Shown here: piece by piece, positions 20,167 to 34,941 of the stretch
How positions within the stretch are numbered: position 1 is the stretch's first letter
Layout of the letters: each line of letters starts with the position of its first letter
Made by a program: the position numbers and the translations under genes
Notes under the pieces: model-generated
Database searches by the model: none
Told to the model about the DNA's origin: nothing
The model's input: only the letters and a program-made list of their open reading frames with translations
Origin: Aplysia californica
Lineage: Eukaryota
Length of the DNA stretch: 55,708 nt
Assembly: GCF_000002075.1 (NCBI RefSeq)
Contig: NW_004797330.1
Location: 411,736-467,443, forward strand
Reading direction: 5' to 3'

Positions 20167-22584
20167 GTATGTCGTACTGGTTAAGTCGAAAGAAAATTAT
20201 TTTTTTTCACCAGCTCCGTGCCTGTTGTCTAACTCTTGTCTGTTCTGTGTTTCAGATACTATAAAGGTTCTTCACCTTCCCTGTATACATATGTCTTATC
20301 TTTTGATATCACCTCTCCTGTTTATTCATTGTTGCGTTTTGTCTTTAACTTTTGTCTTATCTTTGTTTTTTTCCAAGTTCTTAATCGATGCTAACTTTAT
20401 TTTATCTGAACTTAATACTGTGCATCTACATTCGTCATTTGAGGCCCTATATGTATTAAATGGGATGCAACTGGACATATTTATTGTCTGTATTTTGTAA
20501 AATTAGGTACAGATGTTAGGCTTAGTGAAAAAGAGTCAACTTCCACAGTGTGTGTGTACGAGTCTTGAAGGACTGCATATAAAAGTTTCAACGTTTTATC
20601 CAAAAAATGGCTGAAAAAGTCTTGAATTCATGAAAGATGACAATTTACTTAATAAAACGTGAATAAATATCTCAATACGAATTGTTAGGTATTTTTGTTT
20701 GAATAGTAAGCCTGTTCTTTCCAAGATAAGGACTGATAAAAAAAATTGTGCTCCCTCCTTTCTTTTGTCTTTCAGAAACATATAATTTTTTTACTACTTC
20801 CCCATCCCGTCTTTGTTAAAAAGTTGTTTATGAAGGAACAGAACGGCCACTTAATTATAATTCAGAATTTTTCATTATGAAGCTATTGTCTTGAATGTTT
20901 TCCTACCTTGAAATAGGATAACTTCTGTTGTTTCCAGTAACATTGGTTTCTTAAAGTTCCCAACATACTTAATGAATGTTGTAGTTTCTGTAATGTACTC
21001 ATGTTTGTGTTTGTCCTTTACAATTTATCCTCAGTTGGTTTTTAAATTTTGTTTGTTTTCCTATTTTGTTGTGTAGTATTTTGTCTTTCTCATTATTTTG
21101 CTGAAGATCTTAGATATCCTTACAAAATAATTATGTGGTATACTTGTAACCACCATTTATGAAATTGGATGTGGAGACAGTGATCCTTTTTTTATTATTT
21201 GTTAATTTTTTAGAGAAAGCAAGAATTCACCGCCTTTTTATCGTTCTTCAGTTTTTGCATATTGTTTGATTTCCGAATTCTTAGGATTTTTTTCTTTTGA
21301 TTTGTCTCATTTTTTGTTTGTTGCAGATTGATTTCATTTCCATAATATTCTGATTTGTTCTTGTTTCTTGAATCATTTCTTTGTTATGCGTTTTGACTGG
21401 CATGAGATTGAATGGTCACAAGTTTTTAGTTTGTTATGTGGAATAAAATGTGGTTATGTGCGAAGTACTTTTTTTTATAATAGGTTTGTGGAGTTGTACG
21501 ATTAGTGTGGGCGTAAGTGTCCCCAAGATTTCTTGCACAAATCTTTTTTCAAAATGTAATGTATGAATGATAAAAAAGTTAAGACGAAAATATAATAAAG
21601 TTTTCTTTAAAATAATGTTTTGGGTTCAGTTGGACTTTACCTCTAGGAAAGGCAAGAGCATCAGAATGGTTAGGAAAAGGTTTAACTGGAATGGACAGAA
21701 TTGAATCTTAAATGCTGGAATGATTTTCATAGCAGGTTTTAGATATTATAATTTTGCTTTCCCAGTCTTGGTGTAAATGTTTGTGTTTTTATTGAAGTTT
21801 ATGGTTCATTAATTTCAGTTTTCTTTATCTTTTTTATATATAGGCAGTATGAAGGGCGCAATTTGCCTTAGTTGATATTTTGCTGGCTTCTTTTTAAAAT
21901 TTTGTTACCAATCCTTTGAGTGCAAGTGTCTTTCTGTGACTGTTCTGCCGTTACAATATATTGAAGTCCTCTTTTGAGATTCGTTTGATGCTATGATCAG
22001 CGTCACATGATCCTTTCTTTTTTCCTATCAGGTTGTGTGTTAGGATGCTGGTAGCATATATAGAGCTCATCCAACACAGCACAAAAGTGTTTTTGTGTTT
22101 GTGTGTATCTGAAGGTGCATACACTAATACACGAGTACACTGTGCTGAAACTCACCTTTCCATAAATGTATCTGCTTTTCTCTTCTCCTCTTTCTTTCTT
22201 TGGGCTCTCTCTCTCACTCACCCGATCCTTTTCTTTAAGGCCAGCCCTTCCCTCCCACTCAAGAGACTTTACATTTAAGTTTAAGGTTTTTTACGTCTTG
22301 ACACACTTTCCCCTCTTTCAGCGTTACTTAAATAATGTATTTTTTTCTATGAGACATGTCGTCTGATATGCTTTATAAATTATCGTAAGTTCAGTGACGT
22401 CAATTATGCAGCTTTTCCGAACATTCCACTATAATGTTAACATTTATGTTGTGTTATTGCTCTTGCCCCGCTGTATTTTTAAGAAGCATGTCTCTGATGG
22501 AGGAACAGTAGCACCACCCATGAATCTGTGTTGAAAACAGACCAGTAGGTCTTATTTTATTTTTATTTCCCCCAAGTTAGTATA

Positions 22585-23131
22585 CAGTGGAGCCGACTTC
22601 AATGAGCTAAGAACTTGCCACTGTGGGGCTGTTGGCCACAGATTTGACTGTCTCTCACAAGTTTGGGATCAGGATTTAAATGAGATCTGTGTTTTGCCTG
22701 TCTTTCCTTGAATATTTTTGCTCTCAGCTTAGTGCTTTGCCTTTAGAAGTAGTAACATTTTGTGTTAAAAGATTATTGAGCTTCAGCTGCTGCTACGGAA
22801 CTTGCAAAGAGCACAGTAGGTTTAAAGATGCGATATTTGTGGTCAGATTCCAAATTGTTTGTACATGGTGATAAAAAAAAACGACAACTTTTTTTCTAAA
22901 TATCTCGCACTAAATTTATACTAAAATCTTGTAGTTTGGAACAGATAAAATTCATTCAAAAGGAATTTGTTTGATGAAAATCCACAAAGAAGTAACTTAT
23001 TTTCGAAAACGAAATTGGCGTTTATAAAAACCGCCTATAGATGCAAAATGCACCAGTTTAAAAGGTCTTATAAGGCCTCAAAAGTCACAGAATTCTGGTT
23101 CATGTGAGCTCTTTCCAAGTGGACTCCACTG
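22585..23131. mobile_element. Tc1/mariner-type MITE
   Basis: TA|cagtggagccgacttcaatgagct ... agctctttccaagtggactccactg|TA. Confidence 0.8.
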
Positions 23132-23981
23132 TATTTTCATCAGCCTCCTTGCACCTGTTTACTTGCAGTTAGTATAGCAAATATGTTGAAATGAAAATCT
23201 AGCCATGATGTATGAAAGTCATTTTGGATTTTGCTTAGAACTCAGATAAGGGAAGGACATTTTGTTGTTTGCTTTCCTTTGAAATTAGTCAATATATAGA
23301 TTCTGGAGAATTTCTAGCCTAGGTCACCAAGAGATCCTATTCACCTTTGTCTTTAAAAAAGAAATCCATAGGGTTTGGTGTTGAAAAAAAAATGACAGTG
23401 ATTTTGAAAGGACTTGAAAGGACTTCCTACAGGTCTTTATTTAATTGTCAGTGAGGCCCATATTTTCGTGGAAGATTGAAGGAAAACAAGAAAAGTTGCT
23501 GTTGTAAATGACAGCCTCCTGCCGTTCAACCTATTTTTGTATTTTCATGATTATTTTTCTTTTTTGCAAGCCTTAGTTTTTAAAAATCCCTGTTGAATTT
23601 AAAAAGAACTTTTGGGATTGGAGGGGGGGAGGTAACCGTTACAAACTTTCAGATTTAACAGTTTTTTGTGGGTCTTATCACTATCAAAAGGTGAACTGCA
23701 ATGTAAAAGTAGGTGGCTGGAACCTGCGGACAATAGTACAGAGGGGTAATAAAAATAGTTAAAATTTGTTTTTAACAGAACATCTTAAAACAAAAGTAGC
23801 CTTGGTTAGGGTTAATCCCATCCTCCGAATCCAGCCAACAATGAAAATGACAACTGAGGCTTGCTCTAGCTGTTTTTTGAGTTTCTCTTTATTTCACAGG
23901 TTCGCACTTTACCTCATTGTTGTTATTCTTGATGTCAGACTTGTATGTTTCTTTATTGAACTGTAATTTCCTTTTCTCTAG

Positions 23982-32653: not shown

Positions 32654-32866
32654 GGCATCTGTGGAGTAGCGATTAGGCGCTTCGCTTTTTGCTTTCAGGA
32701 GACCAGAGTTTGATTCCCGAGTGGGGAGAAATTTTTATCAAGTGTCTCTGTCTACTTTATACTGGGATGTTGTATCTCTCTTAGCCAGGGTTTGCGCTGA
32801 TAGGCAGAGTCAGACGCTCGCTCATAAATGATCTAAATTATGTTGATGGAGGCGTAAAAAAAAAAG
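32654..32866 (+). mobile_element. tRNA-derived SINE, decayed
   Basis: A-box-like tggagtagcgattagg, B-box-like gtttgattccc, and 3' end tgttgatggaggcgt followed by an A-run. Confidence 0.55.
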
Positions 32867-34941
32867 CCAGCATAAAACCCCCCCCAAATTTGACTGTATC
32901 TGATTGACAGCTTTTTCTCTTCTTGGATTTTTTCCTACTGTAATAGTCAGTGAGAGGTTCAGTGTTTCTATTTTCCCATGGACAAATGTGTCCTCTCCCC
33001 TATATTTGTGATTCTAAAGGTGTTCATTTGCCTCCTATGAATGAAACTTGTTCTGAAGTGAAGCACATGCTGTAATTTGTACATTTGGTCACAAGTAAGA
33101 CACGTGTACTGGTATATCTGTTTAATTATTTGCACAAAATCCAAAGTCTCAATGTAAATACATGCAGAAAAAGTTCTTATGGACATTTAAATACTAAAAG
33201 TTCAAGTACTTGTTTTTTATTTGCTGGCATGTGTAAGTGCAGGCAAGCACCCACTCAGTACTCTCACAAGAGCACACAACCCTGTGTGGGTACTCACACA
33301 AAGACAGTACTCTTGCAGACAGTTGGGGGTAATCCATAAATTGATTTGGTCTCTCTTTTACACACCCACACTCGCTCGCACACACATGCACATACACACA
33401 CATGCACACACACACACACACACTCTTGTGAAGAGTCATTTAATTTCATATTGCATAAGTGATGTTGTTCACCCATTCTGTTCATAATATTGTCAGTGGT
33501 TGTTGTTTGTGCTGGACAGGGTTAAAACTTGGCAATGCACATACCTTTCTGTAAGCTGTTCACCGATTCAGCACAATATACGGGTGTTTTTGTCTATTTC
33601 ACGGCTTTATGTCTCGTCTTTAAGCCTTATGGGACCTCAAGGTGTTTCTCCCATAAATCATTTTCAATTTCTGATTTTCCTGTTTGTGAAATGGAACGAT
33701 ACTTCGTATGATCTGGTTTTATGAAAAGGTTGAGGGGTCCTTAATCATGTTCTTGGAGAACAGAAAAACATTCTTAAAATTACACTAAAGCTGATATTTT
33801 AGTTTTGGAGACCACTTGTATCGAGGTGTTCATGACTTTGAAAAATTCTTTTGTAAGTGGTTAATGCAACAGATGGTCTGAAGTTGTGGATGGCATGGTT
33901 GTGTTGCATGTTTAGATAATTCAGATAGCTCTTGCTCTGGAGCTTGAGCCGTTCAGAAAGGTATTTTTATTTATGGTCTGCTCAAATATCCTGTGTGCTG
34001 CATTGTGTGCTTTTGTCTGCTGAAGCTTGTTTAGTGCAAAAAAGAATTAAAAGAAGATAACTGACTTCTTTATGTCTTAGTTTTTTCCCTCATAATCACT
34101 CGTATTTTGTACATTGATTAATGAGCTTGAGTGGTTTCCCCATCCCCCATTTGTTGAGCTTATTTCCTCCTTTTTCTCTCAATAGAATTTTGGAAATTCA
34201 TGTTTTCTTTAACATTTTAGATTGCTGTGAGTCGTGTTCATTGATTTTTATCTATTTATAAAGTTCAGTACAGACCATTCTTGTTCTAACTTTGTAGAGC
34301 TTTTAATGCATACATTTGATTATGTTAGTTCTGTTTTGAGGAATGCTTGATGAACTTTTATTTTGCCCTGTCTTGTTCATTGCATATTTGCATTTATTCT
34401 TGACGTGACAGTGTATAGGATACTGGTTGTAAATGTTTTTGACTGTGAGTTTAAACATTAAATTTAATTATTCAAGTAATTTGGCTCTGAATTAAAGCAA
34501 TTCATGCTGCCATTAAACATTTTTGTGAAAGATTTCCAAGTTCTATAGATTTATGGTCTATGTTGATAGTTGTTGGCGGCTGACTGCCATGCGCTGCCCA
34601 TCCCCCCCCCCTTAAGTTCAATCAACCAGTAGGAGCAATGTTTCTACTTTTTATTTGTATCTCTATACATATATACACAGTATTTCATAATCAAGGATGA
34701 ACCTAAGTATACTAAATACATGTACATTGCAAATGTTACTCAAGTGATTGCTTCTGTTGATAAATGCCAACGGCTCATTTTGTTTCTTGACCAAAGAGGA
34801 TGTCTTTACCTCTTTTCTTGTTCCCTTTATGCAATTTTTGTATGCGCCCTGTCTTAACATATCTCTATTTCAAATGCTTTTCAATGGAAAGAATGATATC
34901 GTGTCATCTTACATTTGCTTTTCTCTTTCTCTGATTCTCAG

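What the first reader, a model, noticed from the sequence alone, without database searches (positions are those of the whole stretch)
20167..34941. Cluster of phase-2 exons in SNRK intron 4: a possible C-terminal tail-swapping system
Seen: exon 4 ends CG|gt (phase 2). At least five downstream acceptors continue that frame: 23982, 25794, 26798, 27448 and the canonical 34942, with weaker ones at 22032 and 28508. Several end in stops with AATAAA nearby (26460, 26946). Inference: the kinase+UBA core could be joined to different tails by alternative last-exon choice. Only the 34942 exon carries the CaaX motif, the basic RRRRR stretch and the conserved SNRK tail motifs, so splicing would switch localisation. 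I do not know of such an array being described for SNRK. Caveat: any AG matches phase one time in three.
Basis: partly seen in the sequence, partly recalled or inferred. Interest (0 to 1): 0.7.

Follow-up and report, generated by a model that had tools for sequence, protein, structure and literature searches.

The report
Mollusc kinase with switchable actin-anchor exon
In this sea slug's SNRK kinase gene the supposed row of alternative endings is mainly two optional middle exons, spliced in or out as in abalone gene models, one carrying a predicted actin-filament-binding motif, while one further exon, conserved in snails but not seen spliced here, likely offers a real alternative ending without the predicted membrane anchor.

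Summary
The gene is SNRK; the window's exons rebuild RefSeq Aplysia californica isoforms X1/X2 letter for letter. The proposed array of last exons is mostly not one. 23982-24521 (A, 540 nt) and 27448-27522 (D, 75 nt) are internal, frame-keeping cassette exons; their 'stops' are the TAG/TAA inside their own phase-2 donors. Contig joints show exon4>A and A>last in 5 of 5 runs, plus A-skipped forms. Haliotis rubra models hold all four A/D combinations. All keep the CaaX tail. A carries an invariant IxxLxxxFE, matching the published F-actin motif VxxLxxxFE except Ile for Val; binding is untested. One candidate survives as a true alternative last exon: 25794-26145 (B), conserved in Biomphalaria and Bulinus models (E about 1e-8), with no good in-frame donor, but no joint into it was seen. 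26798 has one low-depth exit joint; 22032 and 28508 have no support. Verdict: mostly ordinary, annotated cassette splicing, with two testable new points (actin-anchor exon, CaaX-less B tail). The scan's index held no earlier SNRK note.

The parts
10330..10921 (+). SNRK coding exon 1 (kinase N-terminal part)
   Evidence: PF00069 E 7e-52; spliced CDS identical to P0001
17606..17747 (+). coding exon 2
   Evidence: joint to exon 3 in run X6
19457..19672 (+). coding exon 3
   Evidence: joints in X6 and raw reads X22-X24
19978..20166 (+). coding exon 4 (end of UBA domain); phase-2 donor CG|GTATGT shared by all downstream choices
   Evidence: PF23312 E 6e-5, under cut-off on this piece alone; joints to 23982, 27448, 34942
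23982..24521 (+). cassette exon A, 540 nt, phase 2-2, internal; included in RefSeq X1/X2, skipped in some RNA
   Evidence: 20166>23982 and 24521>34942 in 5 of 5 contig runs; skipped by 20166>34942 (X6) and 20166>27448 (X5); homologous in gastropods and bivalves, z 19-66
24409..24435 (+). [quoted passage not shown]
   Evidence: I523, L526, F530, E531 invariant in 14 of 14 aligned proteins where the exon averages 42% identity; 26 of 20000 shuffles of the exon contain the pattern; consensus VxxLxxxFE from 10.1101/2025.04.16.649135
24523..24525 (+). TAG inside the exon-A donor; a stop only if the intron is read through
25794..26145 (+). exon B, candidate alternative last exon: 116 codons then TAA, no good in-frame donor
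   Evidence: tblastn of Biomphalaria and Bulinus segments against all six frames of the intron hits here, in frame, E 1.6e-8 to 1.8e-9; donor scan; no joint into it listed
25957..26031 (+). conserved core of B: RRES (PKA-type site, consensus recalled) followed by a predicted amphipathic helix
   Evidence: alignment A1; highest hydrophobic moment in B, 0.51 against median 0.29
26460..26465 (+). AATAAA, candidate poly(A) signal for B
   Evidence: contigs of X7 and X6 stop at 26492 and 26500, a very weak hint
26798..26862 (+). exon C, 65 nt, stop-containing candidate (20 codons, TGA, then donor GTGAGA); acceptor inferred
   Evidence: one joint 26862>34942 in X7, depth 3.4; GC 0.55 against 0.37 for the intron; no orthologue match in 13 proteins
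27448..27522 (+). cassette exon D, 75 nt, phase 2-2, internal; RefSeq X1
   Evidence: 20166>27448 (X5), 27522>34942 (X16; loose end in X5); X1 rebuilt exactly; Biomphalaria z 14, Lymnaea model
   Evidence: one joint 30097>34942 in X14, depth 2.9; donor GTGAGT
34942..36493 (+). coding part of the common last exon: acidic and Ser-rich SNRK tail, RRRRR at 35471-35485, CCSVV end (CaaX at 36479-36490)
   Evidence: joints from 20166, 24521, 26862, 27522, 30097
39438..39443 (+). AATAAA, likely main poly(A) signal (inferred)
   Evidence: X7 contig of 4505 nt starting at 34942 would end near 39446 if colinear

Best explanation
Between its UBA domain and its tail, this mollusc SNRK splices two optional frame-keeping exons (A and D) in or out, and exon A likely adds a low-affinity actin-filament anchor, while a third conserved exon (B) likely serves as a minor alternative last exon that would drop the CaaX tail. 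Shown: A and D are internal phase 2-2 cassettes; contig joints give exon4-A-last, exon4-last and exon4-D-last, RefSeq X1 gives A+D; all four products (896, 921, 1076, 1101 aa) end in the same CCSVV tail. All exons are phase 2 because both ends of the parent intron are phase 2, and a phase-2 donor GTAG/GTAA/GTGA reads as an in-frame stop, which is what looked like terminal exons. Inferred (about 0.55): the invariant IxxLxxxFE in A binds F-actin like the SFM of ITPKA/Lifeact, so inclusion of A would tether a prenylated, membrane-bound kinase to cortical actin and skipping would release it. Inferred (about 0.5): exon4-A-B with polyadenylation near 26460 gives a 676-aa kinase with the actin motif but without CaaX, in a tissue or stage not sampled here, in the manner of LKB1-S. 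22032 and 28508 are chance acceptors; 26798 and 30063 are rare or cryptic stop-containing exons.
For: Spliced CDS identical to P0001 (X2) and P0015 (X1). Joints: 20166>23982 and 24521>34942 in 5 of 5 contig runs (5 study codes); 20166>34942 in 1 of 5; 20166>27448 in 1 of 5; 27522>34942 in 1 of 5 plus a 16-nt loose end in another. Haliotis rubra models X1-X4 are A+D, A, D, neither; H. rufescens, H. asinina and Lymnaea have A-skipped models. Motif present in all 31 of 33 proteins that contain exon A (the other 2 are fragments without it) and in 5 of 5 Ostrea isoforms. B: z 9.7-11.4, 0 of 300 shuffles, against 3 planorbid proteins; only B and D are hit below E 1e-4 in six frames of the intron; T content 0.23 like exon 4 (0.22) and unlike the intron (0.36); Bulinus (699 aa) and Elysia crispata (679 aa) models end in the B homologue after exon A; no in-frame donor with 5 or more of 8 consensus matches in Aplysia B.
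Against: No joint into 25794 is listed in 5 contig runs; the 24521>34942 joint skips B in all 5, and in all 5 the listed contig over 25794 crosses the acceptor unspliced; contigs drop rare variants, so this bounds abundance only. B is internal, not terminal, in 3 Biomphalaria models (P0005, P0017, P0018) and absent from RefSeq X1/X2 of Biomphalaria and Aplysia as listed. The Elysia model ending in B sits next to a separate model for the last exon (RRG08_064414 / 064415), so its end may be a predictor split; Elysia B is only weakly alike (z 1.4; E 0.03). P1 of the motif is Ile, the paper's consensus has Val. The orthologues were found with exon A itself, which favours those keeping its motifs. 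Prenylation of CCSVV is inferred from the motif only.
Confidence: 0.7

Rival explanations
1. One reading: exon 4 is joined to a row of alternative last exons (22032, 23982, 25794, 26798, 27448, 28508, 34942), each giving its own tail.
For: All are AG acceptors open in the exon-4 frame; exon 4 does splice directly to 23982, 27448 and 34942; B and C have AATAAA downstream.
Against: 23982 and 27448 splice on to 34942; their stops lie inside donors; 22032 and 28508 have intron-like T content (0.36, 0.37), no match in 13 orthologues and lie inside joints that skip them; acceptor and AATAAA counts equal shuffled controls.
Confidence: 0.06
2. B is real coding sequence by descent but is not a working last exon in this species: a rarely used or decaying exon, or an internal exon in snails only.
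For: No joint into B in 5 contig runs, which join across it; only a core of about 25-35 residues is alike; internal in 3 Biomphalaria models; no separate Aplysia B-bearing protein found in two searches.
Against: The frame from a strong acceptor through the conserved core is open for 116 codons, and the core is 62% identical over 34 residues to Bulinus, hard to keep without selection across that distance (age of the split recalled as well over 100 My).
Confidence: 0.35
3. The invariant block in exon A is another short motif (docking site, self-association or auto-regulatory helix for the kinase), and the likeness to the actin motif is incidental.
For: Residues besides P1/P4/P8/P9 (S521, K522, S528, F529) are also invariant, and two more invariant blocks lie in A (KKTxTAP, TxxMTLDR); Ile at P1; the motif is degenerate (128 of 20000 shuffles under a looser pattern).
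Against: All four defining positions fall on invariant columns in the right spacing, in a poorly conserved linker without Pfam match; strict pattern in 26 of 20000 shuffles.
Confidence: 0.4
4. CaaX-less forms arise by donor read-through plus intronic polyadenylation or by small stop-containing exons (stop right after A or D; exon C or F spliced to the last exon), not by B.
For: In-frame TAG/TAA in the A and D donors; Patella vulgata RefSeq X7 (577 aa) ends at the D homologue; X16 contig runs unspliced from A through D and then splices 27522>34942; exit joints 26862>34942 and 30097>34942.
Against: These fit ordinary partly spliced precursor and cryptic splicing; C and F joints are single contigs of depth about 3, entry joints unseen, no orthologue match. 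This does not explain why B is conserved.
Confidence: 0.15

Closest known systems
RefSeq SNRK isoforms X1/X2 of Aplysia californica (XP_005093280.1, XP_005093281.1) and X1-X4 of Haliotis rubra (XP_046549209-212)
   Same: Exons A and D and their optional use are already in these automatic models.
   Different: A-skipped forms, exon B, and exons C and F are not among the two Aplysia isoforms listed; no function is assigned to exon A.
LKB1-S / LKB1-L (alternative last exons IXa / IXb of Lkb1; PMC3228757, passages read; C-terminal prenylation motif of LKB1, PMC4200829, passages read)
   Same: A kinase of the same pathway whose C-terminus is swapped by an alternative last exon; the long form carries a prenylation motif. 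B would work the same way.
   Different: LKB1-S is shown and testis-enriched; B is unproven. That LKB1-S lacks the prenylation motif is recalled, not read. The paper notes similar localisation of both LKB1 forms, a caution against assuming a localisation switch.
[quoted passage not shown]
   Same: Spacing P1-P4-P8-P9 (I, L, F, E) in a variable linker.
   Different: Ile for Val at P1; the preprint screened human proteins and its main text does not name SNRK or molluscs; here the motif sits on a cassette exon. Its supplements (list of 103 proteins) were not seen.
Mammalian SNRK (review PMC7508454, passages read)
   Same: Kinase + UBA architecture, AMPK-related, LKB1 substrate.
   Different: The review has no occurrence of 'exon', 'actin' or 'membrane'. 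An exon-A-like segment was found in 1 of 68 top representatives scanned (an oyster) and in none of the named non-mollusc ones.

Membership tests
SNRK (AMPK-related kinase) | N-terminal Ser/Thr kinase domain followed by UBA domain; orthology | tested here: met
   PF00069; PF23312 on P0001; CDS identical to a record named SNRK
Symmetric cassette exon (A, D) | Own acceptor and donor, length a multiple of 3 | tested here: met
   540 and 75 nt, AG/GT ends
Symmetric cassette exon (A, D) | Both inclusion and skipping joints in RNA | tested here: met
   A in: 5 of 5 runs; A out: X6, X5. D in: X5, X16; D out: 5 of 5
Symmetric cassette exon (A, D) | Conserved optional use in relatives | tested here: met
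   Haliotis rubra X1-X4, Lymnaea, Biomphalaria X1/X2 models; gene models, not reads
   23982, 27448 and the 26862 donor splice on to 34942
Alternative last exon, LKB1-S type (exon B) | Acceptor in frame, own stop, no in-frame donor | tested here: met
Alternative last exon, LKB1-S type (exon B) | Protein-level conservation | tested here: met
   planorbids E about 1e-8 to 1e-9; Elysia weak
Alternative last exon, LKB1-S type (exon B) | Splice junction into the exon | tested here: inconclusive
   none listed in 5 contig runs, which drop rare variants
Alternative last exon, LKB1-S type (exon B) | Poly(A) end behind its own signal | tested here: inconclusive
   AATAAA 26460; two contigs stop at 26492 and 26500, one runs through; contigs cannot show ends
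SFM (VxxLxxxFE) | Leu P4, Phe P8, Glu P9 | tested here: met
   invariant in 14 of 14
SFM (VxxLxxxFE) | Val at P1 | tested here: inconclusive
   Ile in 14 of 14; conservative, but the text read does not state whether Ile is tolerated
SFM (VxxLxxxFE) | Lies in a disordered region | not tested
   no disorder predictor run; no Pfam match and poorly conserved flanks
SFM (VxxLxxxFE) | Binds F-actin, lost on P1/P8 mutation | not testable with these tools
   needs co-sedimentation or co-localisation

The most novel reading that the evidence does not exclude
Mollusc SNRK is addressed by splicing with two independent switches: cassette exon A adds an F-actin anchor found across gastropods and bivalves, and a heterobranch-specific last exon B removes the lipid anchor and adds a PKA-site helix, giving membrane-only, membrane-plus-actin and actin-only forms of an LKB1-pathway kinase in Aplysia neurons or germ cells.
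Probability: 0.25. Interest if true: 0.6.

Novelty: new variant of a known kind. Interest (0 to 1): 0.36.

Why it matters
The splicing itself is ordinary and partly annotated. What would matter: a splice-controlled actin anchor on an AMPK-family kinase in a classic neurobiology model, testable with one peptide, would extend the SFM motif to molluscs and link LKB1-pathway signalling to the actin cortex; a CaaX-less B form would repeat the LKB1-S/L design one step down the same pathway. The case also shows a trap for sequence-only reading: phase-2 donors create in-frame stops that make cassette exons look terminal.

Tried and rejected
Run search: no RNA holder listed on record; the 5 contig runs laid are guessed RNA or unlabelled, and I treat them as RNA because they show GT..AG joints. 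Raw poly(A) runs X22-X24: 212, 231 and 362 reads laid, about 80% running on unlike the stretch (repeats); only the exon 3>4 joint (2 reads each); uninformative. Complex prediction of residues 510-545 of P0001 with a divergent intronless actin-like protein of this genome (L004): no answer, score 0.11 against a mark of 0.34, controls not folded, alignments not used, peptides and filaments untested for that tool; no evidence either way. Searches for B-bearing proteins: longer proteins, 0 of 346 candidates; profile A1, 1 of 2180 candidates, the Elysia tail itself. ESM Atlas gave no result. Pfam: no family above cut-off for A, B, D, 22032 or the last exon. Upstream extra segments of Nucella, Babylonia and Patella have no match in the intron (best E 0.18), so 22032 is not their homologue. 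P0035 (661 aa) looked like a B form by length but is a partial exon4-D-last model. No DNA run was laid as control and no orthologous intron DNA was available, so no codon-level test. Papers: SNRK + Aplysia 0 papers; SNRK + isoform + alternative splicing 499 papers, the 20 listed all on plants or algae; SNRK + actin 16 listed, none on this by title; SNRK + prenylat + AMPK-related kinase 5 LKB1 papers; searches gave nothing to the point (listings only).
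Full report
Identity. The window holds a complete SNRK gene on the + strand. A search with the 23982 frame returned a protein that its source names Aplysia californica SNRK isoform X2 (P0001, 1076 aa, 100% over the 180 residues) and 13 mollusc orthologues, 14 of 1387 candidates. Joining 10330-10921, 17606-17747, 19457-19672, 19978-20166, 23982-24521 and 34942-36493 gives P0001 exactly; adding 27448-27522 gives isoform X1 (P0015, 1101 aa) exactly. 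So the 'intron 4' of the finding is at least three introns.

Observation. Their number is chance: 31 strong acceptors against 25.8 +/- 4.6 in 200 shuffles, and 6 of 31 followed by AATAAA against 4.9. Phase is no argument for a terminal exon, since any acceptor is read until a stop. The non-random part is two long open frames after strong acceptors (180 and 116 codons; 2 of 200 shuffles). The stops after 23982 and 27448 are bases 2-4 of their donors (AA|GTAG, CG|GTAA): a phase-2 donor of that form always reads as a stop.

RNA. I laid 8 of the 24 listed runs: 3 raw poly(A) runs, too thin here, and 5 contig sets under 5 study codes, labelled only as guessed RNA or unknown but showing GT..AG joints. 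Joints 20166>23982 and 24521>34942 appear in 5 of 5; 20166>34942 in X6; 20166>27448 in X5, with a loose end at 27522 that reads as the start of 34942; 27522>34942 in X16; 26862>34942 in X7 (depth 3.4); 30097>34942 in X14 (depth 2.9). No joint enters 25794, 22032, 26798 or 28508. Contig depth cannot rank forms, and contigs drop rare variants. Thus A and D are internal cassettes, each seen in and out; products of 896, 921, 1076 and 1101 aa all end in CCSVV (the 921-aa form rests on X5, A+D on RefSeq X1).

Conservation. Against the linker of 13 orthologues with 300 shuffles each: A matches 13 of 13 (z 19-66); D matches 3 Biomphalaria proteins (z 14) and weakly Haliotis (z 3.3, 1 of 300); B matches the 3 planorbid proteins that hold a homologue (z 9.7-11.4) and not clearly Elysia (z 1.4); 22032, 26798, 28508 and 30063 match none (best z 1.9). 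In a six-frame search of the whole intron the snail segments hit only B and D below E 1e-4. Haliotis rubra models X1-X4 are A+D, A, D and neither; H. rufescens, H. asinina and Lymnaea have A-skipped models; 5 of 5 Ostrea isoforms keep A but vary at the same two junctions. These are automatic models, not reads that I saw. Of the 68 best representatives that I scanned, out of 150 listed from a search with P0001, 1 carries an A-like segment (oyster); 2 are A-skipped gastropod forms; the named non-molluscs (hemichordate, crinoid, two insects) lack it. So A looks mollusc-restricted as far as searched; most of those rows are unnamed and each shows one isoform.

What exon A may do. A averages 42% identity but has three invariant blocks; the third is SKIxxLxSFFE. 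[quoted passage not shown] I first recalled the resemblance and then checked the consensus in the paper. P4, P8 and P9 match; P1 is Ile. The pattern occurs in 26 of 20000 shuffles of the exon and in all 31 proteins that contain the exon; these were found with the exon, so the count is not independent. Inference: inclusion of A would tether the kinase to F-actin, on top of the predicted prenyl/palmitoyl tail. Binding is untested; I put it at about 0.55. The preprint's supplements were not seen; its list of human SFM proteins might bear on SNRK, though the main text does not name it.

Exon B. 25794-26145 has a strong acceptor, 116 codons, exon-like composition, no in-frame donor with 5 or more of 8 matches and AATAAA at 26460. 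Its core (25957-26031) is an RRES site and a predicted amphipathic helix, 62% identical to Bulinus over 34 residues. Bulinus and Elysia crispata models end in the homologue, after exon A; three Biomphalaria models use it internally; RefSeq models of Biomphalaria and Aplysia as listed omit it. The Elysia end may be a predictor split. In all 5 runs the listed contig crosses the acceptor unspliced; two stop at 26492 and 26500, one of them with a 22-nt loose end that I recognise from memory as adapter, and X16 runs through. Exon4-A-B would give 676 aa without CaaX. I put its use as a last exon at about 0.5, probably tissue-restricted. The precedent is LKB1-S, an alternative last exon enriched in testis (PMC3228757, passages).

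C and F. 26798-26862 (65 nt) has a stop one base before a donor that is spliced to 34942 in one low-depth contig; it would give a 20-residue tail and, with the stop so near the last junction, probably escape nonsense-mediated decay (rule recalled). 30063-30097 is similar. Neither has an entry joint or an orthologue match. I treat them as rare or cryptic. Patella vulgata X7 ending at the D homologue shows that read-through of a phase-2 donor is modelled elsewhere.

Verdict. The shown part is a conserved two-cassette system, already in automatic annotation. The new and testable parts are the actin-motif reading of exon A and the conserved, unannotated-here exon B. I found no paper on SNRK in Aplysia or on these exons, in a library that lacks most subscription journals. 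Interest 0.36.

Noticed in passing
window 10612-10635 (kinase hinge): One Gly is missing in the hinge (LGDGDM against LGDGGDM/L) in the 5 heterobranch rows of alignment A2 and present in the other 9 molluscs: a lineage-specific deletion inside the kinase domain.
   Followed up: partly
window 23983-24020 and 24130-24170: Two more invariant blocks in exon A (KKTxTAP, TxxMTLDR), possible phosphorylation or docking sites; no family assigned.
   Followed up: no
window 24492-27521 and 20137-24010: Run X16 has long unspliced contigs over the introns flanking exon A, one ending in a 27522>34942 splice: partly spliced precursor or retained introns.
   Followed up: no
window 24070: G>A difference in contigs of 3 of 4 runs, Val to Met in exon A; likely an allele.
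   Followed up: no
window 7573-8402 and 1625-2538: Broken LINE-like fragments; RVT_1 E 4e-6 on 7573-7947, no Pfam match on 1625-2356.
   Followed up: partly
window 44734-46419, - strand: Broken piggyBac-like DDE transposase; PF13843 E 2e-13 on 45523-45918.
   Followed up: partly
window 54553-55299, + strand: GC- and CpG-rich open frame of 249 codons, rich in Arg/Asp/Leu, no Pfam family above cut-off; probably an exon of a neighbouring gene.
   Followed up: no
window 18141-19422, 22900-23000, 32696-32734: Repeat-derived stretches that attract most raw reads with loose ends.
   Followed up: no
L001-L004 (G000 C39, C358, C482): Four intronless, divergent actin-like genes, 88-98% identical to L004, with an N-terminal extension; possibly retrocopies or a germ-line actin family.
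   Followed up: no
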